Shown: positions 1 through 21,120 of the stretch, piece after piece
Layout: each line of letters begins with the position of its first letter
Numbering within the stretch: the stretch's first letter is position 1
Assembly (NCBI GenBank): GCA_046152925.1
Contig: JBJXFX010000002.1
Location: 1-24,000 of the forward strand
Source: Dehalococcoidia bacterium
Lineage (GTDB): Bacteria > Chloroflexota > Dehalococcoidia > Tepidiformales > Tepidiformaceae
Length of the DNA stretch: 24,000 nucleotides
Direction of reading: 5' to 3'
Notes under the pieces: model-generated
Database searches by the model: none
What the model was told of the DNA's origin: nothing
The model's input: only the letters and a program-made list of their open reading frames with translations
Translations under genes and position numbers: made by a program

Positions 1-433
1 GGACGCGACCGCCGCCGCGCTCGCGGGCGGCGCCCCGGCGGTCGCCACGCCAGACGTCCGCGACGTGCTCGCCCGCATCCGGCCGGGAGACTACGTCGCG
101 ATCTGCGCCTATCTCCCGCGCGACACGGCCTCCATCACCAAGCTCCGCGCGCTGCGCCACCGCCTTCGCACCCGCTACGCGGCCGCGACGACGGTCGGCT
201 TCGGCCCGCGCTTCCTCCACTCGACCGGCCAGCTCCATAAAGGCGGCCCGGACTCCGCGGTCGTCCTGCAGCTGGTGGACGAGCCAGTCGCGGACCTGGC
301 GATCCCGGGTGCGGCCTACGGTTTCGCCGAGCTGCTCGCGGCGCAGGCCGCGGGCGACCTCGCGAGCCTCGTCGCGCGCGGCCGCAGGGTCGCCCGTGTG
401 TCCCTCCAGGAGCTGGAGGCCGCCCTGGCGTAG
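1..433 (+). CDS. C-terminal fragment of a glucose-6-phosphate isomerase-domain protein, as found in bifunctional transaldolase/PGI enzymes; the 5' end lies outside the window
   Basis: The frame is open from base 2 to TAG at 431-433. The motif GFGPRFLHSTGQLHKGGP matches what I recall from the PGI domain of transaldolase/PGI fusions. GC3 is high. Confidence 0.6.
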   Translation, partial: DATAAALAGGAPAVATPDVRDVLARIRPGDYVAICAYLPRDTASITKLRALRHRLRTRYAAATTVGFGPRFLHSTGQLHKGGPDSAVVLQLVDEPVADLAIPGAAYGFAELLAAQAAGDLASLVARGRRVARVSLQELEAALA

Positions 434-9846: not shown

Positions 9847-10064
9847 GCGCCCACCTCCGCCAATCGGTGTCGAGCCGTCCGAGGGACGCGGCCGTGCCGT
9901 TCCAGCAAGCGCTTGAGGATCGCGTAGCGCAGGTGGAAGCGGTCCATCCGGCCGGCCCGCTGGTCTTCGATCGCGGCACGGTCCATGTCCTCAACGAACG
10001 AGGCCATCAAGGCGGGCACGGCATGCTCGCCGAGCTGCGTGACAACGGTCACTTCGTTGTTCAT
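9843..10064 (-). CDS. Hypothetical 73-aa protein embedded in the psp operon
   Basis: Its start overlaps the PspA stop (ATGA) and its stop overlaps the PspAA start (GTGA). GGAGG lies 8 nt upstream. I recognise no family. Confidence 0.6.
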   Translation of the reverse strand: MNNEVTVVTQLGEHAVPALMASFVEDMDRAAIEDQRAGRMDRFHLRYAILKRLLERHGRVPRTARHRLAEVGA

Positions 10065-10792
10065 GATTTCGCCTCCGAAAGCAGCTTGGGCTCTGGCGCT
10101 GGGGCCAACTGCGCCTTGAGCGCGGCGAGCTCCAGCTCGATGGTGCCGGCCGCCCCAAGGCGGTCGAGCTCCCGGTCCAAGGGGTCGCTGGTGGAGAGAG
10201 GGTCGTCGAGCACGCCGCTCTCGATGAGCTCGCCGATCGCGTCGCCGCGGCTGCGGAGCTGCGCGGTCTTGTCCTCGGCGCGTTGGATCGACATGCCGAC
10301 GTCCGCCATCTCCTCAGAGAGGCCGGTGACGGCCTCCCCGATCCGGACGGTGGCCTTGGCTGCCGTGTACTGGGCCTTCACGACTTCCTTCTTGGTGCGG
10401 AACGCCTCGACCTTGGCGGCCAGCCGGGCCTCCGCCTGGATGAGGCGGTCTTGCTCGCCCTTGAGCTGGGCAACCTGCGTTTCGAAGCCATCGAGCTGGC
10501 CCTGGGCGAGTTGCTTCCGTTCGAGGGCGAGGCGGGCGAGGTCTTCGCGGCCAGCAACCAACGCTTGGCGCGCCTGCCCGTCGAACTTGGCGAGCTTGGC
10601 GCGGACCTCCTCGGCCTGGAGCTCGAGGCGCCGGCGGGCCGCCGTCACCTCGACCACGCCGCGCTTCACATCGCGCAACATCTCCACCTGTTTTTCGTAG
10701 CTCAGGTCGAGCATTTCGCGTGGGTCTTCGAGCGCATCGACGGCCTTGTGAGCCTTGGCTTCGAATACCGCCTTTATCCGGCGAAGCAACAT
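10061..10792 (-). CDS. pspA: PspA/IM30 family protein (phage shock protein A-like, ESCRT-III superfamily)
   Basis: The N-terminus is ...ALEDPREMLDLSYEKQVEMLRDVKRGVVEVTAARRRLE. The protein is long coiled-coil sequence of 243 aa. Confidence 0.92.
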   Translation of the reverse strand: MLLRRIKAVFEAKAHKAVDALEDPREMLDLSYEKQVEMLRDVKRGVVEVTAARRRLELQAEEVRAKLAKFDGQARQALVAGREDLARLALERKQLAQGQLDGFETQVAQLKGEQDRLIQAEARLAAKVEAFRTKKEVVKAQYTAAKATVRIGEAVTGLSEEMADVGMSIQRAEDKTAQLRSRGDAIGELIESGVLDDPLSTSDPLDRELDRLGAAGTIELELAALKAQLAPAPEPKLLSEAKS

Positions 10793-10837
10793 CGCGGGAT
10801 TCCCCTTTCAGTTGGATGGTCCGCCAGGGCGCGGCGC

Positions 10838-11791
10838 CTAGTGGGCCGCGCCTGGCGCGATAGCGTGCGGGTCGCCCGGCGTGTCCTTGTCCTTACGGGC
10901 GAGCGATCCGATGACCGCGACCGTCAGGATGGTGATGATGACGCCGAGGCTGACGAGCGGGTCGATCTTGTACACGTCGATGAGGAGCATTTTGATGCCG
11001 ACGAACACCAGGATGGCCGCCAACGCGGGCTTCAAGTACTTCATCCCGGCCAGGTAGCCGGAGAGCACAAAGTACAAGGCCCGCAAGCCGAGGATGGCCA
11101 AGATATTCGAGGTGAAGACGATGAACGGGTCGTCCGTCACCGCATAAATCGCGGGGATGGAGTCGACCGCAAAGACGAGGTCCGTGCTCTCCACGAGCAG
11201 AAGCACGAGGAAGAGCGGCGTCACCATGAGGACCCCCGCGCGGCGTACGAAGAACTTCTGCCCTTCGTACGCTTCCGTCACTGGGAAGAAGCGCTTCGCC
11301 ACGCGGACGAGCGGGTTCTTTTCAAGCGACGGGGCGTGTTCGCCCGAGTCCCGGAGGAACTTGAGGCCCGTCAGGATGAGGAAGGCCCCGAACAAGTAGA
11401 TGACCCAGTGGAGCGCCCCAAGAAGCACGCCCGCCGCGGCGATCAGGATCGCCCGCATGATGAGCGCGCCGACGATGCCCCAAAACAGGATTCGGTGCTG
11501 ATACATCGCCGGGACGCCAAAGCTCGCGAAGATCAGCAGGAAGATGAAGACGTTGTCGACCGCCAGCGATTTCTCGATGAGGTAGCCAGTCGTCCATTCG
11601 ATGCCGGAATCCCGGCCCTGGAACAGGTAAACGCCGACGTTGAAGCTGGCGGCAAGGCCGATCCAGACGACGCTCCAGATGAGCGATTCCTTTTTGGTGA
11701 CTTCGTGGGCATTGCGGTGAAACACGCCCAAGTCGAGGGCGAGCATTGCACCGACGAGCACCAGAAATCCGATCCAGGGCAAGAGGTCCAT
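10838..11791 (-). CDS. TerC family integral membrane protein
   Basis: The TerC motifs ESTDLVFAVDSIPAIYAVTDDPFIVFTSNILAILGLRALYF are present, along with multiple TM helices. I prefer ATG 11791 (GGAG upstream); a TTG at 11797 is also possible. Confidence 0.92.
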   Translation of the reverse strand: MDLLPWIGFLVLVGAMLALDLGVFHRNAHEVTKKESLIWSVVWIGLAASFNVGVYLFQGRDSGIEWTTGYLIEKSLAVDNVFIFLLIFASFGVPAMYQHRILFWGIVGALIMRAILIAAAGVLLGALHWVIYLFGAFLILTGLKFLRDSGEHAPSLEKNPLVRVAKRFFPVTEAYEGQKFFVRRAGVLMVTPLFLVLLLVESTDLVFAVDSIPAIYAVTDDPFIVFTSNILAILGLRALYFVLSGYLAGMKYLKPALAAILVFVGIKMLLIDVYKIDPLVSLGVIITILTVAVIGSLARKDKDTPGDPHAIAPGAAH

Positions 11792-11821
11792 GAACAAATG
11801 AGGGCTCCGTCAGGTAGGGAT

Positions 11822-12259: not shown

Positions 12260-12285
12260 TACTCCCCCGTGGTAGTTACTACAAT
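12260..12285 (+). promoter_or_regulatory. Candidate promoter for the SbtA-like gene (-10 TACAAT)
   Basis: TACAAT is at 12280-12285, with a weak -35 (GGTTAC/TTACTC) upstream. It would give a 5' UTR of about 80 nt containing two small hairpins. Confidence 0.35.
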
Positions 12286-12373
12286 ATGCGACCCAGGAGT
12301 CGCGTGTCAAGAGTCAGACTTTGCTCGGTGGGCGGCTGGCGTCACGACACGCTGGTCGTGTAGCTTCAGGCGG

Positions 12374-13333
12374 ATGATGCCTTTGGACGCGGCCGCGACC
12401 AACCTCACTTCGCCCCCCGTCCTCGCTTTCGCTCTGGGCGCCGCGGCCACCTTCCTACGCGGCGACCTCCGCTTCCCCGACGCGATCCACACGGCGATCA
12501 CGACCTACCTGCTGCTCGCCATCGGCCTCAAAGGCGGCGCGCAGCTTTCGGAGAGCTCGCTCGGCGAGGTCTGGCTCCCGGCGGTGGTCGCCGTTGGGTT
12601 AGGCTGCTGCATCCCGCTGTGGGCCTACGCTGGCGCCCGGCAGTTCGGCAAGCTCAGCGTCGCCGACTCGGCGTCGATGGCGGCGCACTACGGCTCAGTC
12701 AGCATCGTGACGTTTACCGCCGCGACTGCCTTCGCGACCGCATCCGGGCGCGAGGCCGAAGGCTTCCTGCCGGCGCTCGTCGCGATGATGGAGATCCCGG
12801 GGATCATCGTCGCCCTGCTGGTTGCCGCCCGCTTTGGCGGGGGCGTCCAAGGCGCCGAGGCGATCCGCGAAGTGGTCTCCGGGCGCGGCGTCCTGCTCCT
12901 GGGCGGCGGTCTGATCATCGGGTTCGCCGCGGGGACCGACGGTTCGAAGGCCATTGAGCCATTCTTCGTCGCGCCCTTCTACGGGGTCCTCGTGCTCTTC
13001 TTGCTCGAAATGGGCTCGACGGCGGCGGAGCGGTTTGGCGAGGTGCGGCAAGCTGGCGCCTTCCTCCTCGGGTTCGGCCTGGCCATGCCCATCCTCAACG
13101 GCGCCCTCGGCGTCATCGCGGGCACACTGGCCGGCCTTTCGCCGGAGGGAGCGGCAATCCTCGGCGCCGTTGCGGGGAGCGCGAGCTACATCGCGGCGCC
13201 CGCAGCCGTGCGCATCGCCCTCCCGGAGGCGAACCCGGGCCTCTCGCTCACAGCCGCGCTCGCCATCACCTTCCCCTTCAACCTGATCGCCGGCATCCCC
13301 TTATTCTTCCTCTTGGCCGACGCGCTGGGCTGA
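12374..13333 (+). CDS. Sodium-dependent bicarbonate transport family permease (SbtA-like)
   Basis: SPPVLAFALGAAATFLRGDLRFPDAIHTAITTYLLLAIGLKGG and the polytopic membrane layout match the SbtA family. No SbtB (PII-like) gene follows. Confidence 0.85.
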   Translation: MMPLDAAATNLTSPPVLAFALGAAATFLRGDLRFPDAIHTAITTYLLLAIGLKGGAQLSESSLGEVWLPAVVAVGLGCCIPLWAYAGARQFGKLSVADSASMAAHYGSVSIVTFTAATAFATASGREAEGFLPALVAMMEIPGIIVALLVAARFGGGVQGAEAIREVVSGRGVLLLGGGLIIGFAAGTDGSKAIEPFFVAPFYGVLVLFLLEMGSTAAERFGEVRQAGAFLLGFGLAMPILNGALGVIAGTLAGLSPEGAAILGAVAGSASYIAAPAAVRIALPEANPGLSLTAALAITFPFNLIAGIPLFFLLADALG

Positions 13334-13389
13334 CCGGTGGAGCATTCGGCATCCTCGGTGACGAATGTGTGATCCGACAATCATCAGTC

Positions 13390-13426
13390 ATTGACGAAGT
13401 ATTGACGAAAATCGTACGCTAGGCCC
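13390..13426 (+). promoter_or_regulatory. Promoter plus candidate CarH/LitR operator: tandem 11-bp direct repeats overlapping the -35 and -10 boxes, with a leaderless start
   Basis: ATTGACGAAGT (13390-13400), ATTGACGAAAA (13401-13411) and TCGTACGCTAG (13412-13422) follow one another. TTGACG 13391-13396 and TACGCT 13415-13420 are separated by 18 nt, and ATG 13427 lies 6 nt after the -10 box. Confidence 0.5.
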
Positions 13427-14281
13427 ATGGACTTGACACCCCTCGGAGTTGCCGCTGCAACCGGCATCACCGTCCACCAGCTCCGGCTCTGGGAGCGGCG
13501 TTACGGCTTTCCGACACCCCAGCGCGCACCCAGCGGCCACCGTCGCTACAACCCGGCGGACGTCGACGCCGCGCGCCTCATGCGCCAGCTCATCGCGGCA
13601 GGCGTCCCGGGGGAAGTCGCTGCGCGCACGGCGCGCGAGCGGCTGAGCGCCCCGGCGCAGGATCCGGCTGCGACGCCGGAGGGACCGCGCAGCTTGCTCA
13701 CGCTGATCGCCGGGCTCGATGCTCGGGCGCTCCCCGCCGCGCTCGCCGAGGCATTCGCGGAGCGCCAGCCGGAGGCGGCCTTCGACGAGGTCGTTGCGCC
13801 GCTGCTCCGCCAGGTGGGGGATGCCTGGGAGGCTGGCGACCTCAGCCCAGCCCAGGAACACTTCGCCACACTCGCGGTGCTGCGAGCGTTTGAACGCTCC
13901 TTCGGCGGGGCCGGCGGCGCCATCTACCCTGGCCCCATCCTCATCGCTTGCCCTGCCGGCGAAGAGCACGACCTGCCGGCCGCCCTCCTCTCGATGAGCC
14001 TCGAGTGGCACGGCCACACAGTCGTCTCACTCGGCGCCAACGTCCCTGGCGACGCGTTGCTCGATGCGGCAAGGGCCGTCCGGCCGGTCGCCGCCTGCCT
14101 CGTGGTCACCGCCGACAGCAGCATCCCCGCCACCCGGTTGGCGGCTGGCGCGTTGATCCGCGCAGGGATCCGCGTCCACACGGCGGGCCGTGCGCTGTCC
14201 GCCGCGAACCCTGCCTTGCCAGGGCCACTCCTCAGCTTCACCGCCGCCCTTAGGGCGTTCGGCGTCAACCAAGGAGGTTGA
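13427..14281 (+). CDS. MerR-family regulator with a cobalamin-binding domain (CarH/LitR-type light-responsive repressor)
   Basis: The HTH reads ITVHQLRLWERRYGFPTPQRAPSGHRRY. The Wx9EH motif is intact (W134 at nt 13826-13828; E144-H145 at nt 13856-13861). The B12-binding Rossmann segment ILIACPAGEEHDLPAALL carries the candidate lower-ligand His181 (nt 13967-13969). Confidence 0.88.
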   Translation: MDLTPLGVAAATGITVHQLRLWERRYGFPTPQRAPSGHRRYNPADVDAARLMRQLIAAGVPGEVAARTARERLSAPAQDPAATPEGPRSLLTLIAGLDARALPAALAEAFAERQPEAAFDEVVAPLLRQVGDAWEAGDLSPAQEHFATLAVLRAFERSFGGAGGAIYPGPILIACPAGEEHDLPAALLSMSLEWHGHTVVSLGANVPGDALLDAARAVRPVAACLVVTADSSIPATRLAAGALIRAGIRVHTAGRALSAANPALPGPLLSFTAALRAFGVNQGG

Positions 14282-14282
14282 A

Positions 14283-14807
14283 ATGTCCATCCATCGTGTC
14301 CGCGAGTCCGCAATCGTCCAGGCCGATCTCGATTCGGTCTGGCGCTTCTTTTCGGACCCGCGCAACCTCGCACGCATCACGCCACCCTGGCTGGGCCTCC
14401 GCCTCACGTGCGAGCCGCCCGCCGAAATGCACCCGGGTCTCATCCTCACCTACACGGTCCGTCCGTTCGCGGGCGTGCCCCTCACGTGGGTGACCGAGAT
14501 CACGCATGTCGTCGACCACCGCCTTTTCGTGGACGAGCAGCGGATGGGGCCTTACGCCTTCTGGCATCACCAGCACCACTTCCGTCCCCACGCCGACGGC
14601 GTCGCGATGGAGGACATCGTCCACTACGCGCTGCCGGGCGGGCCCGCCGGTGACCTAGTCAACCGGCTTAGCGTCGCCAAGCGCGTGGCGTCGATCTTCG
14701 CCTACCGGACGACCGTGATGCGGGAGGTCTTCCCCGTCCTGACGAGGGCTGAGGGTGCGCCTACTCCGCCCTCGGCCCTGCCCGCCTTCGGCCATGCAAC
14801 GGCCTAA
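14283..14807 (+). CDS. SRPBCC (START/Bet v1-like) ligand-binding family protein
   Basis: The ATG lies 1 nt after the regulator stop, and the AAGGAGG SD is inside the regulator's 3' end. The sequence is typical SRPBCC (DLDSVWRFFSDPRNLARITPPW, FVDEQRMGPYAFWHHQHHF). Confidence 0.8.
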   Translation: MSIHRVRESAIVQADLDSVWRFFSDPRNLARITPPWLGLRLTCEPPAEMHPGLILTYTVRPFAGVPLTWVTEITHVVDHRLFVDEQRMGPYAFWHHQHHFRPHADGVAMEDIVHYALPGGPAGDLVNRLSVAKRVASIFAYRTTVMREVFPVLTRAEGAPTPPSALPAFGHATA

Positions 14808-14825
14808 CGAGAAAGAGGATTCGAG

Positions 14826-15728
14826 ATGAAGATCGCGATCACCGGCAGCACCGGGTTGCTCGGCACCGCCCTGCACGACGCCTGGGGCGAAACGCATGTC
14901 ATCACCCGCGTCATCCGCGGCCCAAGAGAAGAGACCGTCAGCGTTTGGGATCCGCGGCAAGATTGGGTCCGCCCCGGGGCGCTTGATGGGTACGATGTCG
15001 TTGTCCACCTTGCGGGCGCGTCGATCGGCTCTGGCCGGTGGTCGGCGGCCCGCAAGGCCGAGATCGTCGCGAGCCGCGTTGCAGGCACCCGGACACTCGT
15101 CCGGCACCTTGCCTCGCTCGAACACAAGCCTTCGTTGTTCATTTCAGCGTCCGCGGTGGGCTTCTACGGCTCGCGCGGTGACGAAGTATTGACGGAGGAA
15201 AGCGCGCTCGGCGCGGGATTCCTTGCCAACCTCTGCAAGGATTGGGAAGCGGAAGCGAGGGCCGCCGAGCAAGCCGGCATCCGCACGGCGATCCTTCGGC
15301 TCGGTGTGATCCTCTCGCGCAATGGCGGCGCGCTCGGGCGCATGCTGCTCCCGTTCAAGCTCGGCGCCGGCGGGCGGATCGGCTCCGGGAAGCAATGGAT
15401 GGCCTGGGTCGGGCTCGAAGACGCGGTCCGCGCATTTGACTTCGTGGTCCGCGCGCCCGGCGCGCAGGGCGTCTACAACGTGACCGCGCCAAACCCCGCG
15501 ACGAACGCCGAGTTCACCAAGGCCCTCGGCAAGACCTTGAAGCGGCCCACGCTCGTGCCCGTGCCCCCGTTCGGCCTGAAGCTCCTGTTGGGTGGCGAAA
15601 TGGCCCAAGAGCTGATCCTCGCGTCGCAGCGCGTCGTCCCTCAGCGACTGGGCGAGGCCGGCTTCCAGTTCCGCCAGCCACGGATCGCGGATGGCCTGGC
15701 CGCCGCGCTCGGCCGGGGAGGCGGCTAA
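14826..15728 (+). CDS. TIGR01777/YfcH-type atypical SDR (NAD-dependent epimerase family, SDR39U1-like)
   Basis: It aligns by eye with E. coli YfcH along the full length (MKIAITGSTGLLG, HLAGASIGSGRWS, ISASAVGFYG, LPFKLGAGGRIGSGKQWMAW, RLGEAGFQF). Confidence 0.9.
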   Translation: MKIAITGSTGLLGTALHDAWGETHVITRVIRGPREETVSVWDPRQDWVRPGALDGYDVVVHLAGASIGSGRWSAARKAEIVASRVAGTRTLVRHLASLEHKPSLFISASAVGFYGSRGDEVLTEESALGAGFLANLCKDWEAEARAAEQAGIRTAILRLGVILSRNGGALGRMLLPFKLGAGGRIGSGKQWMAWVGLEDAVRAFDFVVRAPGAQGVYNVTAPNPATNAEFTKALGKTLKRPTLVPVPPFGLKLLLGGEMAQELILASQRVVPQRLGEAGFQFRQPRIADGLAAALGRGGG

Positions 15729-16513
15729 TGGCGGTCGCAATCGCCCAACGCCAAGCCGGCGCCGCGCGTCTTCGCCAGTGGAACCTCGCCATGGGGGCCC
15801 TCCACTTCATCCAGGGCGTTGGTATGCTTGCCCTGGCGAGCAGCTTCGCCCTTCCGGTGACCGCCGCCTTCGTCGTCATGGACCCGGAGAGCGGCGGCCT
15901 CGAACCGGACCTCCGGACGCTGTTCGATGTCCGGCTCGGTCCGGTAATCGCGAGCTTCCTCTTCCTCTCCGCCGTGGCCCATCTGGCGGTCTCCCTGCCG
16001 CGCACGTACCGCTGGTACACCTCCAACCTCGCGAAGGGGATCAACTACGCCCGCTGGGTCGAGTACTCGCTCAGTTCGTCGGTCATGATCGTCGCCATCG
16101 GGATGATCGTCGGGATCTACGACGTCGCCGCGCTCATCGGGCTGTTCGGCCTGAACGCGATGATGATCTTCTGCGGTTGGATGATGGAGCGTCACAACCA
16201 GCTCACCGCGCGCGTCGATTGGACGTCGTACGTGTTTGGCTGCTTCGCTGGGGCGCTGCCCTGGGTCGCGATCTTCATCTACCTGATCGGCGCTGGGGGC
16301 CAAGACGGCGGCCCGCCAACCTTCGTCTACGCGATCTTCGTGTCGATCTTCGCCTTCTTCAACGTGTTTGCGCTGAACATGTTCCTTCAATACCGCAAAC
16401 TCGGCCCTTGGCGGTCGTATCTCTTCGGCGAAAAGGCGTATCTGATCCTCAGCCTCACGGCGAAATCGGCGCTCGCGTGGCAGGTCTACGCCGGCACCTT
16501 GCAGCCGAGCTAA
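15728..16513 (+). CDS. Heliorhodopsin (retinal-binding seven-TM protein with inverted topology)
   Basis: It closely resembles the prototype heliorhodopsin 48C12 as I recall it: ARWVEYSLSSSVMIV (counterion Glu112), FCGWMMERH, GEKAYLILSLTAKSALAWQVYAGTL (Schiff-base Lys246, AAA at 16463-16465), plus His26 and His85. The start overlaps the SDR stop (TAATG). Confidence 0.92.
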   Translation: MAVAIAQRQAGAARLRQWNLAMGALHFIQGVGMLALASSFALPVTAAFVVMDPESGGLEPDLRTLFDVRLGPVIASFLFLSAVAHLAVSLPRTYRWYTSNLAKGINYARWVEYSLSSSVMIVAIGMIVGIYDVAALIGLFGLNAMMIFCGWMMERHNQLTARVDWTSYVFGCFAGALPWVAIFIYLIGAGGQDGGPPTFVYAIFVSIFAFFNVFALNMFLQYRKLGPWRSYLFGEKAYLILSLTAKSALAWQVYAGTLQPS

Positions 16514-16530: not shown

Positions 16531-16559
16531 TTGATAGCCTTAGTCAACTATCGTACGCT
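16531..16559 (+). promoter_or_regulatory. Candidate promoter of the rhodanese gene (TTGATA-17 nt-TACGCT)
   Basis: TTGATA is at 16531-16536 and TACGCT at 16554-16559. The AAGGAG SD lies before ATG 16593. Confidence 0.5.
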
Positions 16560-16592: not shown

Positions 16593-17459
16593 ATGTCCGC
16601 AATCGCCGACCGCGGCTATGCCAACCCCGACGTCCTCGTCTCGACCGACTGGGTCGCCAGCCATCTGAGCGACCCGTCGGTGCGGATCGTTGAGTCCAAC
16701 GAAGACCAGCTGCTCTACCCCTCGGGCCACATCCCGGGCGCCATCCAGATCGACTGGGCGGCCGACCTCAACGACCAGGTCCGCCGCGACTACCTGGACA
16801 AGGCCGGGTTCGAAGCCCTGATGTCGAAGAGCGGCATCAGCCGCGACACGACCGTCGTCTTCTACGGCGACAAGAACAACTGGTGGGCCTGCTACGCCTA
16901 CTGGATCTTCCAACTTTTCGGCCACACCAAGGCGAAGGTGATGGACGGCGGACGCCTCAAGTGGGAAAAGGAGAGCCGGACGCTGACCCGCGAAGCCCCG
17001 AGCTACGCGGCCACCAGCTACACCGCCCCCGAGCGCGACGACAGCGCGATCCGCGCCTTCCGGGAAGAGGTGAAGGCCCACTCGGCCGCCGGCAAGCCGC
17101 TCGTCGATGTGCGCAGCAACCCCGAGTACACGGGCGAGCGCACGCACATGCCCGAGTACCCGCAAGAGGGCGTGCTCCGCGGCGGCCACATTCCCGGCGC
17201 GAAGAACGTGCCCTGGGCGCGCGCGGCGAACCCCGAGGACGGCACCTTTAAGTCGGCCGCCGACCTCCGCGCGATCTACGAGCAGGAGCAGGGGCTGAAG
17301 GCGTCCGACGACATCGTCGCCTACTGCCGGATCGGCGAGCGCTCCAGCCACACCTGGTTCGTGCTCACGAACCTGCTCGGCTACAAGAACGTCCGCAATT
17401 ACGACGGTTCGTGGACCGAGTGGGGCAACAGCGTCGGCCTGCCGATCGAGAAGCCGTAA
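16593..17459 (+). CDS. Thiosulfate/3-mercaptopyruvate sulfurtransferase (tandem rhodanese domains)
   Basis: The two-domain rhodanese layout is present. The active-site loop is [12 protein letters not shown], and the protein ends in YDGSWTEWG. Confidence 0.9.
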
Positions 17460-17894: not shown

Positions 17895-17950
17895 AGCGTC
17901 GAGCCTAACCGGCCGCTGCCCGGTTCGCCATCACCGTGCACAATAGCGCC

Positions 17951-18625
17951 ATGACTGATCCCGGCCTCTTCCAGACCCTCTATACCACCCGCGCGTTGCG
18001 CCGGTTCAAGCCGGACCCGATCCCCGATGATGTGCTCTTTCAGGTGCTCGACGCCGGGATCCGGGCGTCGAGCGGGCAGAATGCCCAAGACTGGCGCTTC
18101 CTCGTGATCACGGACCCGGCGGTCAAGGCGAAGCTCCAAGAGTGGGCGCTCGAAGGCTGGGCGCGCTATCAGGCGCGCTTCGGGACCCAGGAAGCGATCG
18201 ACGCCCTGCCACGCAGTCAGCGTCTCTCGCTCAACAGCGTCCGCGACCTCTCCCACACAATCGGGAAGGTGCCGGTCGTCCTCGGGGTGCTCGGCCTCAA
18301 GGGACGCCACTCCACGCCAGGCGGGAGCGTTTTTCCCGCTGTTCAGAACATCCAGATTGCGGCGCGGGCCTTGGGACTCGGCAGCTCGATCTTCAACCTT
18401 CCGTTCGGCCACAAGGACGAACTCCTCACGATGCTCAACATCCCGGAGAACAACGAGCTCTATTGCCTCTTGCCGATGGGCTACCCGACGGACAAGCAGG
18501 GGCCGGTGAAGCGGAAGCCACTGCGCGATGTCGTGTATTGGGAGAAATTCGGCGAGCGCTGGCCCTTCGCGGAACAGCAGCCGGCCACCGGCTATCAGGA
18601 CAAGTGGGTGCCGCCTCAATCGTAG
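17951..18625 (+). CDS. Nitroreductase family protein
   Basis: TTRALRRFKPDPIPDDVLFQVLDAGIRASSGQNAQDWRFLVITDP is a classic nitroreductase N-terminus. A CACAAT box lies 6 nt upstream of the ATG. Confidence 0.88.
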   Translation: MTDPGLFQTLYTTRALRRFKPDPIPDDVLFQVLDAGIRASSGQNAQDWRFLVITDPAVKAKLQEWALEGWARYQARFGTQEAIDALPRSQRLSLNSVRDLSHTIGKVPVVLGVLGLKGRHSTPGGSVFPAVQNIQIAARALGLGSSIFNLPFGHKDELLTMLNIPENNELYCLLPMGYPTDKQGPVKRKPLRDVVYWEKFGERWPFAEQQPATGYQDKWVPPQS

Positions 18626-19284
18626 CTCGGCACCAACTCCAGGTGCCCCGAGCCGATCTCCACGATTTCCGACGGGATCGTCTCGCCAAATGCGACCGTC
18701 ACGGGCGGGCCATCTGCCCAACGCAGTTCGACGACGCGCTTGTCGACGTCCACCAGCCAGACTTCGCGCACGCCATAGTGGAAATACGATGGCAGCTTCA
18801 CACCCCGGTCGTACTCGGCCGTGCTCGGCGAGAGCACTTCCACGATCAAGTCGGGCGGGCCGTTCACGCCGTGCCGGCCGCGGCGGAACATGCTCTCTGG
18901 GGCGAGATACATGATGTCGGGCTGGAACCCGATGCGTTCGGCGAAGTCGACGTTCTGCGGCGCGGTCCGCACCCAGCCGCCTCGGCTGCGCGCGAGCATC
19001 GCCAGATCCGTCGCAATGTTGGTCACGGCATCCTGATGGACGCCGGATGGCGCTGCACACATGATCAGCATCCCGTGGAGAAGTTCGTACTGGTTCGGGT
19101 CGTCGTCCGGGAGGTTATGCCAGTCCTCGACCGTCATCGGAAACGGCGGCTCGATCACGAGCATCCCGTGGAGGAGCTCCTTGACACGCGGGTCACGATT
19201 CTGAATCTCGCGGAAGTTCTCCACCGTAATGACTTGTCCGGGTTCGAGCAGTGGTGCGCGCGTGAGGTTGGACGTCGCTGTCAT
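18616..19284 (-). CDS. Uma2 family (DUF820) endonuclease with a duplicated N-terminal segment
   Basis: PDLIVEVLSPSTAEYDRGVKLPSYFHYGVREVWLVD is the PD-(D/E)xK Uma2 signature. A TAGAAT box (reverse complement of 19291-19296) lies 6 nt upstream of ATG 19284. Confidence 0.85.
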   Translation of the reverse strand: MTATSNLTRAPLLEPGQVITVENFREIQNRDPRVKELLHGMLVIEPPFPMTVEDWHNLPDDDPNQYELLHGMLIMCAAPSGVHQDAVTNIATDLAMLARSRGGWVRTAPQNVDFAERIGFQPDIMYLAPESMFRRGRHGVNGPPDLIVEVLSPSTAEYDRGVKLPSYFHYGVREVWLVDVDKRVVELRWADGPPVTVAFGETIPSEIVEIGSGHLELVPSYD

Positions 19285-19365: not shown

Positions 19366-20283
19366 GTGCGCTTTGGCATCGTCACAGCCGACCAGAAGTG
19401 GGTCACGCGCGAGGCGCTGGCCGCGATCGACGCCACCCGCTTCACCACCCTGAGCGTCGTCGACCATCCGTCGTTCGCCATCCCGGACCCGTGGACCTGG
19501 CTCGCCTGGGCGGCAGGCCAGACGCAGCGGATACGGCTGGGCACCCACGTCACGGGGGCGCCCTTCCACCACCCGCAGAACCTCGCGCGGCAGGTCGCGA
19601 CGGTGGACATCGTCAGCGGCGGGCGGGCGTTGCTGGGCATCGGCACGGCCTACGAACACGCCGACTTCCACCCCTTCGGCTACGCCATGCCGCGCTTTTC
19701 GGAACGGGTCGCGATGCTCGAAGAGTGTGTCACCGTGCTTAGGTCGTTCTGGACGCAAGCCTCGACCACGTTCGCCGGCCGCTTCTACCACCTTGAAGGG
19801 GGCGCCGCCTTCAACCCGAAGCCACTCCAGCAGCCGCACCCGCCGATCTGGGTCGGCCTCAACACCGATGGGTTGGCCCTCAAGGCTGCCGTCCGGGTCG
19901 CCGATGGCCTGAATACCTGGCAACTCGGGCCAGGGCAGCTCCGCGACCTGATCCCCGCCGCGCGGGCCCACTGCGAAGCTGCCGGCCGCGACCCCGCGAC
20001 CTTCGCCATCACCGCGGATGTCGTCTTCCTGCGCGATGGCGATGCCGCGGCCGCCGACGCGATGGCCCGGCGCATCTCCGGGATGGCCCGCAGCTGGGGC
20101 CGCTCCGAGCGCGTCACGGAGTGGGATGCCGGCGGCGTGCTCCACGGCGACGCCGCCCAGATGCGCGACCAGGCCGCCGCCTTCCACCTACTCGGGGTAG
20201 AGGAGCTCTCCGTCTCGCTCTCGAACCTCGAGGACATTCGCTGGTTCAGCGACGAGGTGATCGCCAAGGCCGGGCTGAGCTGA
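19366..20283 (+). CDS. LLM-class (luciferase-like) flavin/F420-dependent oxidoreductase
   Basis: GTG start after GGAGG. The sequence is typical of the LLM family (RLGTHVTGAPFHHPQNLARQVATVDIVSGGRALLGIGT, PKPLQQPHPPIWVG). Confidence 0.88.
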   Translation: MRFGIVTADQKWVTREALAAIDATRFTTLSVVDHPSFAIPDPWTWLAWAAGQTQRIRLGTHVTGAPFHHPQNLARQVATVDIVSGGRALLGIGTAYEHADFHPFGYAMPRFSERVAMLEECVTVLRSFWTQASTTFAGRFYHLEGGAAFNPKPLQQPHPPIWVGLNTDGLALKAAVRVADGLNTWQLGPGQLRDLIPAARAHCEAAGRDPATFAITADVVFLRDGDAAAADAMARRISGMARSWGRSERVTEWDAGGVLHGDAAQMRDQAAAFHLLGVEELSVSLSNLEDIRWFSDEVIAKAGLS

Positions 20284-20379: not shown

Positions 20380-21120
20380 ATGGCAAGTAGCAACGTCTCC
20401 CCGTCGAGCGGCCAAACCCCGAGCTGGCGTGCCTGGGCACAGCCCGTCCTCGTGATCGGCTGGGTCGCGGTCCTCGCCTACCTGGCGTACGCCACCGTAA
20501 CGAGCCCAGGGCTCCTCACGATCGTCGCCTTCGCGGGTTCCGTCGTGCTCTTTGGGCTGTTTTGGGCCCAGGTCTGGGCTTCGCGCTGGGTCGGACGCCG
20601 CCAGTGGCGCAGCCTCATCGCCAAAGCCCACGGCTCCGCCTACATCAGCGACATCGACGGGATCCCCAACCGGAACTACCTCCTCTCTGAATTGCGCCGC
20701 GAAATGCCGCGCGCACGCGCGGCGGACACGCCGTTTGTGCTCGTCATCCTTTCGCTCGAGGCGTACGACGAAGTCGTCGACCGCCGCGGGGCCGAATTCG
20801 GCCAACGCGCGATCCGCGGGCTCGGAGAGGTCCTTCGCCGCTTCACGCGCACCTCGGACTTCGTCGCGCATCTCGATGGCTCCCGTTTCTGCGCCATGTT
20901 GAACGAATGCACGTTGGAAGACTCGTTTATCTACCTCCAGCGCGTGCCCGGCACGATCGCGGTGAGCGACGGCCACCGGATGCTCGAAGTTCCGGTCGCC
21001 GCGCGTCTTTTCCAATACGACCTCGAGGGTCTCTACGCGACCGACGTCCTGCGGGATGCCGAAGAAGCGCCGGCCCTGCGCCGACGCGTATCCAAACAGT
21101 TCGGCACCGAAGCGGCCTAA
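20380..21120 (+). CDS. Membrane-anchored degenerate GGDEF-domain protein; the A-site is lost and the RxxD I-site is retained
   Basis: There are two N-terminal TM helices. The GGDEF-fold sequence is present (IPNRNYLLSEL, FVLVILSLEAYDEVVDRRGAEFGQRAI). The signature reads DGSRF (nt 20875-20889) in place of GG(D/E)EF. RTSD (nt 20848-20859) lies 5 residues upstream. Confidence 0.8.
   Translation: MASSNVSPSSGQTPSWRAWAQPVLVIGWVAVLAYLAYATVTSPGLLTIVAFAGSVVLFGLFWAQVWASRWVGRRQWRSLIAKAHGSAYISDIDGIPNRNYLLSELRREMPRARAADTPFVLVILSLEAYDEVVDRRGAEFGQRAIRGLGEVLRRFTRTSDFVAHLDGSRFCAMLNECTLEDSFIYLQRVPGTIAVSDGHRMLEVPVAARLFQYDLEGLYATDVLRDAEEAPALRRRVSKQFGTEAA

What the first reader, a model, noticed from the sequence alone, without database searches (positions are those of the whole stretch)
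13390..16513. A cobalamin-photoreceptor regulator (CarH/LitR type) heads a translationally coupled operon that ends in a heliorhodopsin
Seen in sequence: four same-strand genes have almost no intergenic space. The regulator stop TGA is at 14279-14281 and the next ATG at 14283. The second junction is an 18-nt gap with an SD. The third is a TAATG overlap at 15726-15730. The first gene has the MerR HTH typical of CarH/LitR (LWERRYGFPxPxRxxxGHRxY), an exact Wx9EH motif and an ExH B12-ligand motif. These are the hallmarks of AdoCbl-dependent light-sensing repressors. The last gene is a heliorhodopsin with its Schiff-base Lys, counterion Glu and both conserved His residues. Inference: heliorhodopsin expression is probably released by light through a B12 photoreceptor, so a transcription-level light sensor would gate a retinal-based one. 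Heliorhodopsin function is still poorly defined, and fixed operon partners (regulator, SRPBCC, YfcH-SDR) would give a concrete functional handle. I cannot verify from here whether this linkage has been described.
Basis: partly seen in the sequence, partly recalled or inferred. Interest (0 to 1): 0.85.

Follow-up and report, generated by a model that had tools for sequence, protein, structure and literature searches.

The report
B12 light-switch operon carrying heliorhodopsin
A vitamin-B12-type light-sensing repressor sits at the head of a four-gene operon that ends in a heliorhodopsin; this points to the operon being switched on by light, but the regulator family is well known and the B12–heliorhodopsin gene linkage was already reported statistically.

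Summary
Four + strand genes (13427-16513) are separated by 1 nt, 18 nt and a 1-nt overlap. They encode a MerR/B12-binding regulator, an SRPBCC protein, a YfcH/TIGR01777 SDR and a heliorhodopsin (HeR).

The regulator aligns over its full length to Thermus CarH, by sequence and by predicted fold. It keeps the Wx9EH motif and the axial His.

Its leaderless promoter carries tandem 11-bp direct repeats (ATTGACGAA twice, then a degenerate third), which is the CarH operator design. A 16-nt copy of this operator core lies inside yfcH. It is written in rare codons, so I read it as an auxiliary operator.

The linkage recurs. 8 of the 80 most similar HeR loci from genomes carry a B12-MerR gene, 7 of them within 1.1 kb. 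So do 3 of 7 close metagenomic HeR contigs, and a fourth has a split HTH/B12 regulator. The regulators belong to at least four lineages, and most loci show strong CarH-type repeat arrays. Photolyase, DUF1295, acyltransferase and NmrA/DUF2867 genes join the cluster in relatives.

The partners are recurrent, not fixed, and 80 CarH-like metagenomic loci had no HeR. Two published neighbourhood surveys already list cobalamin-binding and MerR proteins near HeR.

Verdict: a new member of a known kind, with moderate interest. Light control is inferred, not shown.

The parts
13359..13365 (+). Upstream third copy of TGACGAA. It lies 33 nt (3 x 11) before the first operator repeat and also forms one arm of a 9-nt hairpin (13343-13367) after the sbt-like gene.
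   Evidence: direct repeat family D1 with spacing 33 and 11; inverted repeat I1. (TGACGAA occurs only 4 times in the window, all on the + strand). Its role is uncertain.
13387..13419 (+). Putative CarH-type operator made of three tandem 11-bp direct repeats: GTCATTGACGA | AGTATTGACGA | AAATCGTACGC. It spans the -35 element and spacer and runs 5 nt into the -10 element.
   Evidence: ATTGACGAA is repeated exactly at an 11-bp period, and this is the only period-11 8-mer repeat in 24 kb. It scores 9/15 against the published nAnnTnnACAn x3 consensus (locus-wide frequency 3e-4, region P 0.04). The same ATTGACGA forms the third repeat of the 14/15 array upstream of HeR in L071. The operator rule comes from PMC8156234.
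13391..13420 (+). Promoter: -35 TTGACG (13391-13396), 18-nt spacer, -10 TACGCT (13415-13420). Only 6 nt separate the -10 from the ATG, so the mRNA is predicted to be leaderless.
   Evidence: A TAnnnT hexamer lies exactly 6 nt before the regulator start codon, with no SD, in all 9 regulator loci examined: window, L088, L001, L002, L004, L045, L081, L082 and L084.
13427..14281 (+). Class-I CarH/LitR-type regulator, 284 aa. It has a MerR winged-helix DNA-binding domain, a four-helix bundle with Wx9EH, and a Rossmann B12-binding domain with His181.
   Evidence: TtCarH 5c8d E 4e-27, query residues 7-256; model pLDDT 88.6; top Foldseek hits are full-length TtCarH; cobalamin-binding domain TM 0.75-0.81.
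14283..14807 (+). SRPBCC (START/Bet v1-like) ligand-binding protein, 174 aa.
   Evidence: Polyketide_cyc 33.4 bits against a cut-off of 23.4. (5315 homologues; the 120 listed are stand-alone proteins of 153-214 aa). Its SD AAGGAGG lies inside the regulator's 3' end.
14826..15728 (+). YfcH/SDR39U1/ThyD-family extended SDR (TIGR01777), 300 aa, with an N-terminal GSTGLLG nucleotide-binding motif.
   Evidence: TIGR01777 318 bits against 207; ThyD model 264 bits, below its 400 cut-off. (3oh8, 4b4o).
15179..15194 (+). Intragenic copy of the operator core, TGACGAAGTATTGACG. It matches 13392-13407 at 16 of 16 positions and lies inside yfcH, 534 nt upstream of the HeR start codon. I read it as a candidate auxiliary operator.
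   Evidence: expected 0.07 matches at up to 3 mismatches. (it is the longest promoter-versus-rest match; 0 of 200 simulated windows reach 16 nt). (it encodes GDEVLT using GGT 5.6%, GTA 2.6% and TTG 9.3% codons; P of this codon string given the peptide is 1.9e-5). (relatives encode the same motif with GC-rich codons). No -10 element follows it (sequence).
15728..16513 (+). Heliorhodopsin, 261 aa, with Schiff-base Lys246, counterion Glu112, and His26 and His85.
   Evidence: TaHeR 6is6 E 2e-73.

Best explanation
The block 13387-16513 is a single transcription unit controlled by its first product, a class-I (adenosylcobalamin-type) CarH/LitR photoreceptor-repressor.

Proposed mechanism:
- In the dark, the AdoCbl-bound regulator oligomerises, as TtCarH does into a tetramer. 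It then occupies the tandem 11-bp repeats that overlap the -35 to -10 region of its own leaderless promoter, and probably also the two-repeat copy inside yfcH. This keeps the operon off.
- UV, blue or green light photolyses the Co-C bond. The oligomer falls apart and RNA polymerase transcribes regulator, SRPBCC, YfcH and HeR together. The three downstream genes are translated from their own SD sequences at 1-nt, 18-nt and overlapping junctions.
- HeR would therefore be made only when light is present. It would be one member of a photoprotective, membrane- or lipid-directed light regulon. In relatives this regulon also contains photolyase, a PlsC-type acyltransferase, DUF1295, NmrA/DUF2867 and DUF4397 genes.

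Shown here: the gene identities, the junctions, CarH motifs and fold, the repeat architecture, and recurrence of the linkage.

Inferred: AdoCbl binding, repression, light release, co-transcription, and any HeR-YfcH/SRPBCC interaction.
For: Regulator identity:
- Full-length alignment to TtCarH, with Wx9EH and the axial His conserved.
- The predicted fold matches full-length TtCarH.
- Both signature motifs together define CarH homologues (PMC8156234).

Operator:
- An exact 9-mer is repeated at an 11-bp period over the -35 element.
- CarH operators are 3-4 tandem 11-bp repeats that overlap the promoter.
- Related loci carry strong arrays of the published consensus, all in the top ~0.01% of their locus. 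L071 scores 14/15 and L065 13/15, both directly upstream of HeR. L045 and L004 score 13/15, L084 12/15, and L001 and L002 11/15, all in the regulator-HeR intergenic region.

Operon:
- Junctions of 1, 18 and -1 nt, each with an SD.
- The only sigma-70-like sites on the + strand flank the block.
- The order regulator-SRPBCC-YfcH is repeated in L088, where the regulator is 59% identical.

Linkage:
- A B12-MerR gene is present in 8 of 80 genomic HeR loci, 7 of them within 1.1 kb.
- By taxon this is 5/29 Chloroflexota, 3/9 Actinomycetota and 0/42 others.
- It is also present in 3 of 7 close metagenomic HeR contigs, and a fourth (L083) has a split HTH/B12 regulator.
- The regulators fall into at least 4 lineages with three gene arrangements. 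This argues for repeated recruitment rather than inherited synteny.

Intragenic operator copy.

Context:
- The YfcH homologue ThyD is induced by high light and needed for high-light acclimation in Anabaena (PMC11711299).
- LitR regulons elsewhere include photolyase and lipid-modifying genes (PMC9758184).
Against: - No expression or binding data exist for this uncultured Dehalococcoidia MAG.
- The Pfam Rossmann B12-binding score is below its cut-off (27.1 against 32.1). The NCBIfam CarH equivalog score is far below its cut-off (127 against 400). The Gly of ExHxxG is Pro here (EEHDLP).
- His132 of TtCarH, which forms the bis-His light state, is Glu here, so the photochemical end state may differ.
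- The window operator matches the generic consensus only 9/15 (region P 0.04). Its support rests mainly on the exact periodic repeat and on analogy.
- A period-11 8-mer repeat is expected about once per 24 kb by chance; only its location makes it notable.
- Whether this organism makes or imports AdoCbl or retinal is unknown. No crt or blh genes are in the window.
- Most HeR loci lack such a regulator, and 80 CarH-like loci lacked HeR. This is therefore one of several HeR contexts, not a general rule.
Confidence: 0.6

Rival explanations
1. The regulator autoregulates, but HeR is mostly expressed independently from an unrecognised internal promoter or by read-through control. The adjacency would then reflect co-location of light-related genes rather than CarH gating of HeR.
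For: My promoter rule is crude, and promoter rules for Chloroflexota are poorly defined. The operator-like site inside yfcH could mark a separate control point. In A. photophilum, HeR transcripts rise in the dark (PMC8591293), so HeR is not universally light-induced.
Against: The 1-nt overlap of yfcH and heR, and the absence of any TTGnnn-16..18-TAnnnT site within the block, argue against it. In L065 and L071, high-scoring CarH repeat arrays lie directly upstream of HeR itself, with the regulator co-transcribed behind it.
Confidence: 0.12
2. The protein is a B12-independent paralogue like M. xanthus CarA, or it uses another ligand or partner as class II-V LitRs do. Control would then not come from AdoCbl photolysis.
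For: PF02310 scores below its cut-off. ExHxxG is altered to EEHDLP. The protein shares only about 27% identity with TtCarH and scores far below the NCBIfam CarH cut-off. LitR classes II-V show that this family has diversified its sensing.
Against: CarA lacks Wx9EH, whereas this protein has it exactly, plus the axial His. Both are invariant across 12 homologues and present in all 13 HeR-linked regulators. The complete four-helix bundle and Rossmann fold are predicted with high confidence.
Confidence: 0.1
3. The regulator reports corrinoid supply, acting as a nutrient sensor, rather than light. The operon would respond to B12 availability.
For: CarH repression strictly needs AdoCbl, so in a corrinoid-limited organism the operon would be derepressed regardless of light. 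Many Dehalococcoidia depend on salvaged corrinoids (general knowledge, not tested here).
Against: The recurrent partners are light-related: HeR, photolyase in 10 HeR loci, and a ThyD-family protein. None is a B12-dependent enzyme or transporter. No cobalamin riboswitch is present in the window.
Confidence: 0.08
4. The regulator acts as a classical MerR-type activator that remodels a suboptimal promoter, not as a repressor.
For: It belongs to the MerR family. The -10 element (TACGCT) is weak.
Against: The spacer is 18 nt, not the 19-20 nt typical of MerR-activated promoters. The sites are direct repeats at an 11-bp period rather than a palindrome between -35 and -10. This is the CarH repressor design.
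Confidence: 0.05

Closest known systems
Thermus thermophilus CarH (LitR, TTP0056; PDB 5C8D/5C8E/5C8F)
   Same: It has the same three-part architecture, the Wx9EH cap and the lower axial His. Its operator is also built from tandem 11-bp direct repeats over the promoter. The regulator is likewise encoded in a unit it controls itself. (From my own knowledge: litR is the first gene of the autoregulated litR-ldrP operon.)
   Different: - Identity is only about 27%.
- His132, the bis-His partner, is Glu here.
- ExHxxG is EEHDLP.
- The repeat word is ATTGACGA rather than a clean nAnnTnnACAn.
- The cargo is HeR, SRPBCC and YfcH instead of carotenoid genes.
- There is an extra intragenic operator copy.
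Bacillus megaterium LitR/CarH and Streptomyces/Myxococcus class-I LitR/CarH regulons
   Same: They are AdoCbl-dependent, light-relieved repressors that control photoprotective genes from operators overlapping sigma-A promoters.
   Different: Those regulons centre on carotenogenesis. No crt genes lie in this window or in the related HeR clusters I examined.
Class II LitR light regulons of Pseudomonas (PplR/PmlR)
   Same: Their regulon content resembles the extended cluster seen in relatives: photolyase, SDR, FAD oxidoreductase and lipid-modifying genes (PMC9758184).
   Different: Class II LitRs lack the Rossmann B12 domain and work through LOV partners. The protein here has both B12 subdomains.
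Heliorhodopsin operon-partner systems (AbHeR-glutamine synthetase, TfHeR-photolyase, OcHeR-OmrDE ABC transporter)
   Same: HeR is encoded in an operon with soluble or membrane enzymes that it may regulate by binding. Photolyase joins the cluster in relatives of this locus.
   Different: The partners here (YfcH-type SDR and SRPBCC) have not been tested as HeR partners. Those studies did not describe a photoreceptor-type transcription factor that controls the operon.
Auxiliary intragenic operators (lac O2 in lacZ, gal OI in galE)
   Same: A second copy of the operator lies inside a downstream structural gene of the same operon.
   Different: This is only a sequence-level analogy. No such site has been described for CarH as far as I could find, and the distance (1.79 kb) is larger.

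Membership tests
CarH/LitR class I (AdoCbl photoreceptor-repressor) | N-terminal MerR-type winged-helix DNA-binding domain | tested here: met
   PF13411 46.1 bits (cut-off 21.6) and PF00376 37 bits. Residues 7-70 align to the TtCarH DNA-binding domain.
CarH/LitR class I (AdoCbl photoreceptor-repressor) | Four-helix bundle carrying the Wx9EH motif that caps the 5'-deoxyadenosyl group | tested here: met
   PF02607 45.3 bits (cut-off 23). W134, E144 and H145 align to W131, E141 and H142 of TtCarH. They are invariant in 12 homologues and in all 13 HeR-linked regulators.
CarH/LitR class I (AdoCbl photoreceptor-repressor) | Rossmann-type B12-binding subdomain with the lower axial His in an ExHxxG-type motif | tested here: met
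   H181 aligns to H177 of TtCarH and is invariant. The predicted cobalamin-binding domain superposes on the TtCarH domain with TM 0.75-0.81 and rmsd about 3 A. Caveats: PF02310 scores 27.1, below its 32.1 cut-off, and Gly is replaced by Pro (EEHDLP).
CarH/LitR class I (AdoCbl photoreceptor-repressor) | Operator of 3-4 tandem 11-bp direct repeats (nAnnTnnACAn) overlapping the target promoter | tested here: met
   Three 11-bp units lie at 13387-13419, spanning the -35 and spacer and reaching into the -10. The first two share the exact 9-mer ATTGACGAA. The consensus match is modest at 9/15, P 0.04. Binding itself was not tested.
CarH/LitR class I (AdoCbl photoreceptor-repressor) | AdoCbl-dependent oligomerisation in the dark and light-induced disassembly and DNA release | not testable with these tools
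   This needs purified protein for spectroscopy, SEC and EMSA.
CarH equivalog (NCBIfam NF052513) | Score at or above the curated cut-off of 400 bits | tested here: not met
   127.1 bits, E 7e-37. The protein is a family member but not an equivalog of the curated CarH set.
Heliorhodopsin | Family profile above cut-off, with retinal Schiff-base Lys, Glu counterion and the two conserved His residues | tested here: met
   PF18761 337.9 bits (cut-off 26.7) and NF038020 345.8 bits (cut-off 100). K246, E112, H26 and H85 are invariant in 16 sequences and align to TaHeR 6is6.
TIGR01777 / YfcH / SDR39U1 / ThyD | Family profile above cut-off, with an Epimerase domain plus C-terminal DUF1731 and a GxxGxxG nucleotide-binding motif | tested here: met
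   TIGR01777 318.3 bits (cut-off 207.35). PF01370 and PF08338 both hit. GSTGLLG is at residues 7-13 (sequence). The ThyD equivalog model scores 264 bits, below its 400 cut-off, so this is not a ThyD equivalog.
SRPBCC (START/Bet v1-like) | Pfam Polyketide_cyc or Polyketide_cyc2 above the gathering score | tested here: met
   PF03364 33.4 bits (cut-off 23.4) and PF10604 28.1 bits (cut-off 27.4). No solved structure is detectable by sequence.
Single operon (polycistronic unit) | Same strand, short or overlapping junctions, one promoter, one transcript | tested here: inconclusive
   Strand and junctions are met. Simple scans find no internal sigma-70-like site and no convincing internal terminator. 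The transcript itself cannot be tested here.

The most novel reading that the evidence does not exclude
The locus could be a two-tier light circuit. An irreversible B12 photoswitch would license transcription. The retinal protein it induces (HeR) would then act after translation on its co-induced partners, the YfcH-type SDR, the SRPBCC lipid-binding protein and, in relatives, acyltransferase and DUF1295. The result would be remodelling of membrane lipids under light. The codon-disguised operator copy inside yfcH would give the repressor a second grip, by looping or as a roadblock, that specifically tightens dark-state silencing of HeR. That would be the first intragenic auxiliary operator described for a CarH-type photoreceptor, and a fourth, lipid-directed class of HeR partner.
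Probability: 0.2. Interest if true: 0.75.

Novelty: new member of a known kind. Interest (0 to 1): 0.5.

Why it matters
Heliorhodopsin function has been an open question since the family was described in 2018. The few functions proposed so far all came from operon partners.

This locus and its relatives place HeR inside a CarH/LitR-type light regulon, together with photolyase and several membrane- or lipid-directed enzymes. That has two consequences:
- It predicts that these HeRs are made only in the light.
- It names concrete candidate partners: the YfcH/ThyD-type SDR and the SRPBCC protein.

The operator sequences identified here make the prediction cheap to test in vitro, even for uncultured organisms. 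The intragenic operator copy, if functional, would add a new element to CarH operator design. CarH is already used as an optogenetic tool.

Tried and rejected
- Greedy longest-ORF gene calling on related loci failed in this 68% GC DNA because of spurious antisense ORFs. I replaced it with stop-to-stop ORFs plus jackhmmer profiles.
- Carotenoid or retinal genes in the window: none.
- Cobalamin riboswitch or any other Rfam family in the window: none.
- Reverse survey starting from the regulator: 80 metagenomic CarH-like loci at 28-40% identity, and none had a HeR. The linkage is therefore visible only from the HeR side and in particular regulator lineages.
- The contig holding P0123 and P0142 (a second full relative of the window's regulator clade) could not be retrieved. 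L088 ends just before the position of the intragenic operator. Conservation of that site is therefore untested.
- The idea that SRPBCC and YfcH are a fused 'Rosetta stone' pair came from the 516-aa chain 3oh8. It was not verified. The SRPBCC protein has no PDB sequence match, and its 120 listed homologues are all stand-alone.
- An internal promoter downstream of the intragenic operator copy: no TAnnnT lies at 16-18 nt, so I rejected it.
- The rhodanese promoter as a second target of the regulator: it shares ATCGTACGCT, but its upstream repeats match poorly. I left this as an aside.
- In L019, no CarH-type repeat array was found upstream of HeR (7/15).
- A second repeat array serving the divergent HeR-side promoter is visible in L081 and L082 only. 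I do not claim it for all loci with the divergent arrangement.

Full report
**Source and observation**

The window comes from a 72.5-kb contig of an uncultured Dehalococcoidia bacterium (Chloroflexota). The HeR and regulator proteins are identical to NCBI MAG entries.

The four + strand ORFs exist as described:
- regulator, 13427-14281
- SRPBCC, 14283-14807
- YfcH, 14826-15728
- HeR, 15728-16513

The junctions are 1 nt, 18 nt and a 1-nt overlap (TAATG). Each downstream gene has a Shine-Dalgarno sequence (AAGGAGG, AAGAGGA, GGGGAGG).

Profile searches confirm all four identities:
- Regulator: MerR_1, B12-binding_2 and B12-binding. The last scores 27.1 bits, below its 32.1 cut-off.
- SRPBCC: Polyketide_cyc.
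- YfcH: TIGR01777, 318 bits against a cut-off of 207.
- HeR: 338 bits in Pfam and 346 bits in NCBIfam.

HeR aligns to the solved TaHeR structure (E 2e-73). His26, His85, Glu112 and Lys246 are invariant in 16 relatives.

**The regulator**

It aligns over residues 7-256 to Thermus thermophilus CarH (5C8D, E 4e-27). W134-x9-E144-H145 falls on W131, E141 and H142, and H181 falls on the axial H177. These residues are invariant in an alignment of 12 homologues. They are present in all 13 regulators I found next to HeR genes.

An AlphaFold model (pLDDT 88.6) has full-length TtCarH as its best PDB matches. Its cobalamin-binding domain superposes on the TtCarH domain with TM 0.75-0.81.

The literature states that the Wx9EH motif together with the His-containing B12 motif defines CarH homologues. 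The B12-independent paralogue CarA lacks Wx9EH (PMC8156234). In the five-class LitR scheme, the presence of both B12 subdomains makes this a class I protein (PMC9758184).

Caveats:
- The NCBIfam CarH equivalog score is 127, against a cut-off of 400.
- ExHxxG reads EEHDLP.
- The His next to Trp, which forms the bis-His light state in TtCarH, is Glu here.

**Promoter and operator**

The 93-nt gap upstream of the regulator contains TTGACG, an 18-nt spacer and TACGCT. Only 6 nt separate the -10 from the ATG, and there is no SD. A TAnnnT hexamer exactly 6 nt before the start codon recurs in all nine regulator loci I could read: window, L088, L001, L002, L004, L045, L081, L082 and L084. The regulator mRNA is therefore very probably leaderless, and both the promoter and the start codon are well supported.

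ATTGACGAA occurs twice over this promoter at an 11-bp period. It is the only period-11 8-mer repeat in the 24 kb. About one such repeat is expected by chance per window, so location is what matters. The chance of it falling in this particular gap is about 0.004.

CarH operators are three (Thermus) or four (B. megaterium) tandem 11-bp direct repeats of nAnnTnnACAn that overlap the promoter. I scored three tandem units of that consensus in each locus:
- Window: 9/15 at 13387-13419 (region P 0.04).
- L071: 14/15, and L065: 13/15, both directly upstream of HeR.
- L045 and L004: 13/15. L084: 12/15. L001 and L002: 11/15. All are in the regulator-HeR intergenic region.
- L081 and L082: 10/15.

The arrays scoring 11/15 or more sit in roughly the top 0.01% of positions in their own locus.

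The third repeat of the L071 array is TACATTGACGA, which has the same ATTGACGA word as the window. The window regulator's recognition region (TVHQLRLWERRY...GHRRY) differs from that of the main HeR-linked clade (SAEVLRSWERRY...GFRLY). This fits their different repeat words, TTGACGA and TTGTCAA/GACAA.

**A second operator copy inside yfcH**

This was not part of the original finding. The 16-mer TGACGAAGTATTGACG at 15179-15194 is identical to 13392-13407.
- It is the longest match between the promoter gap and the rest of the window. None of 200 simulated windows reached 16 nt.
- TGACGAA occurs only four times in the window: three in the promoter gap and once here.
- The site encodes the conserved family motif GDEVLT, using GGT (5.6% of Gly codons), GTA (2.6% of Val codons) and TTG (9.3% of Leu codons). 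Given the peptide, this codon string has probability 1.9e-5.
- Relatives encode the same motif with ordinary GC-rich codons.
- No -10 element follows the site, so it is not a promoter.

I read it as an auxiliary operator (looping or roadblock), 534 nt before the HeR start codon. That reading is an inference. Conservation could not be checked, because the only retrievable close relative (L088) ends one codon before the site.

**Operon boundaries**

A simple rule (TTG with 5/6 of TTGACA, 16-18 nt spacer, TAnnnT) finds only two + strand sites in 24 kb. One is the regulator promoter. The other is at 16531-16559, just after HeR and in front of the rhodanese gene. No Rfam family is present, so no riboswitch.

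**Survey from the HeR side**

A scan of one genome per species returned at least 596 HeR loci, of which I received the 80 most similar. Profile searches of all ORFs in those loci gave these results:
- A MerR plus B12-binding regulator is present in 8 of 80: L001, L002, L004, L019, L045, L065, L068 and L071.
- Seven of the eight lie within 1.1 kb of HeR. For uniform placement in +/-10 kb, the chance of at least 7 of 8 being this close is about 1.6e-6 (my arithmetic). The loci are not all independent.
- By record title, that is 5/29 Chloroflexota, 3/9 Actinomycetota, and 0/42 CPR, archaea and others.

Annotated contigs of seven close HeR relatives from metagenomes add three more cases and one variant:
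- L081: MerR-B12 divergent from DUF4397-YfcH-SRPBCC-acyltransferase-DUF1295-HeR.
- L082: MerR-B12 divergent from DUF4397-HeR-YfcH-SRPBCC-acyltransferase-DUF1295.
- L084: MerR-B12 divergent from HeR, with an SRPBCC gene downstream.
- L083: a split HTH_17/B12 regulator, then NmrA/DUF2867, acyltransferase, DUF1295, photolyase and HeR.

Two of the seven contigs lack a regulator (L085, L087), and one is cut at its end (L086). L088, whose regulator is 59% identical to the window's, repeats the window order regulator-SRPBCC-YfcH. Photolyase lies near HeR in ten loci.

**Independent recruitment**

All-against-all comparison splits the HeR-linked regulators into at least four lineages:
- A clade spanning Chloroflexota and Gaiellales, with the regulator divergent from the HeR operon.
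- The window clade, with the regulator first in the operon.
- A Chloroflexia pair with HeR followed by the regulator.
- An actinomycete regulator whose closest relatives are soil CarH genes not linked to HeR.

Different lineages, three arrangements and shuffled gene order argue for repeated selection for co-regulation rather than inherited synteny.

**Limits of the linkage**

- 72 of the 80 genomic HeR loci have no such regulator.
- A scan seeded with the regulator returned 80 CarH-like loci (28-40% identity), and none had a HeR.
- The SRPBCC-YfcH pair also occurs alone (L169).

The partners are therefore recurrent in the nearest HeR clade, not fixed.

**What was already known**

- Chazan et al. 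(bioRxiv 10.1101/2021.02.16.431466) analysed thousands of HeR neighbourhoods. [quoted passage not shown] They note that none is unique to HeR.
- Their Dataset S3 gives, for Actinobacteria group A, PF02310 near 18 of 876 HeRs, PF02607 near 6 and MerR_1 near 14.
- Cho et al. 2024 (PMC11109279) class 'MerR family transcriptional regulator', 'SDR family oxidoreductase' and 'TerC' among ten frequent HeR operon partners, without mentioning B12.
- I found no paper in the searchable library that combines heliorhodopsin with CarH or LitR, or that describes operators or light control of a HeR operon by a B12 photoreceptor.

The gene-level association is therefore published. The mechanistic reading and the operator evidence appear to be new.

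**Likely function of the cargo**

The YfcH family includes Anabaena ThyD. ThyD is a membrane-associated protein that is induced 5-8 fold by high light and is required for high-light acclimation (PMC11711299).

SRPBCC proteins bind hydrophobic ligands. In relatives, a PlsC-type acyltransferase and DUF1295 (a steroid-reductase/ICMT-like membrane protein) join the cluster. This fits the earlier suggestion that HeR is connected with membrane-lipid remodelling and photo-oxidative stress.

It also resembles LitR regulons elsewhere, which include photolyase, SDR, FAD oxidoreductase and lipid-modifying genes. By analogy with the three characterised HeR-partner pairs, HeR may modulate YfcH and/or SRPBCC directly. 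That step is pure inference.

**Verdict**

The core interpretation, that a CarH-type light switch gates a HeR operon, is the best-supported reading (confidence about 0.6). It is unproven, and part of it was anticipated in the literature.

The locus is a new member of a known kind of system. It has two features worth following up: HeR as CarH cargo in several independent lineages, and the codon-disguised intragenic operator copy.

Noticed in passing
window 16531-16559: A promoter-like site (TTGATA, 17-nt spacer, TACGCT) lies in front of the rhodanese/sulfurtransferase gene (16593-17459). It shares the exact 10-mer ATCGTACGCT with the regulator promoter (13411-13420). These two sites are the only + strand sigma-70-like sites in the window by my rule. 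It could be a second target of the regulator or just a shared -10 context.
   Followed up: partly
window 10061-11797 (- strand): A pspA (PspA/IM30) and terC pair lies 1.6 kb upstream of the operon. TerC is directly next to HeR in L085 and 6.7 kb from it in L004. It is also one of the ten frequent HeR neighbours listed by Cho et al. 2024.
   Followed up: partly
window 13343-13367: A 9-nt inverted repeat (CATTCGGCA / TGACGAATG) lies just after the Sbt_1-family transporter gene (12269-13333). Its right arm is the third, upstream copy of the operator word TGACGAA. It could be a terminator hairpin, an extra operator unit, or both.
   Followed up: no
L083:591-1387: In this HeR/photolyase cluster the regulator is of a different type and is split. 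One ORF of 119 aa carries HTH_17 plus B12-binding_2, and a second of 146 aa carries B12-binding. They lie beside BMC/EutN microcompartment shell genes.
   Followed up: partly
L061:3351-4307 and L050:7695-8009: Other MerR-family genes without a B12 domain lie next to HeR. One is a MerR plus GyrI-like protein adjacent to HeR in an Acidimicrobiales MAG. The other is a 105-aa MerR 2 kb from HeR in a Dehalococcoidales MAG.
   Followed up: partly
L065:10823-12115 and L071:10814-12106: The Chloroflexia regulators encoded directly downstream of HeR carry a C-terminal extension of about 150 aa after the B12 domain. It has no Pfam match.
   Followed up: no
L084:5878-6657, L004:3231-3950: A conserved ORF of about 259 aa with no Pfam hit lies immediately upstream of the regulator on the same strand. 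Homologues occur in 7 of 80 unrelated metagenomic CarH-like loci. The regulator's promoter and operator would lie inside its 3' end, so either the ORF call or the operon structure needs checking.
   Followed up: no
L081:2771-3640, L082:6077-6916, L002:8855-9772, L032:639-1481: A DUF4397 gene is the first gene of the HeR-side operon in several loci where the regulator is divergent. In L032 it lies about 340 nt upstream of HeR with no regulator nearby.
   Followed up: no
window 20380-21120 and 19366-20283: A GGDEF-domain protein and a luciferase-like monooxygenase lie downstream. A Uma2-family endonuclease (18616-19284, - strand) and a nitroreductase (17936-18625) lie between them and the rhodanese gene. 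No link to the operon was seen.
   Followed up: no
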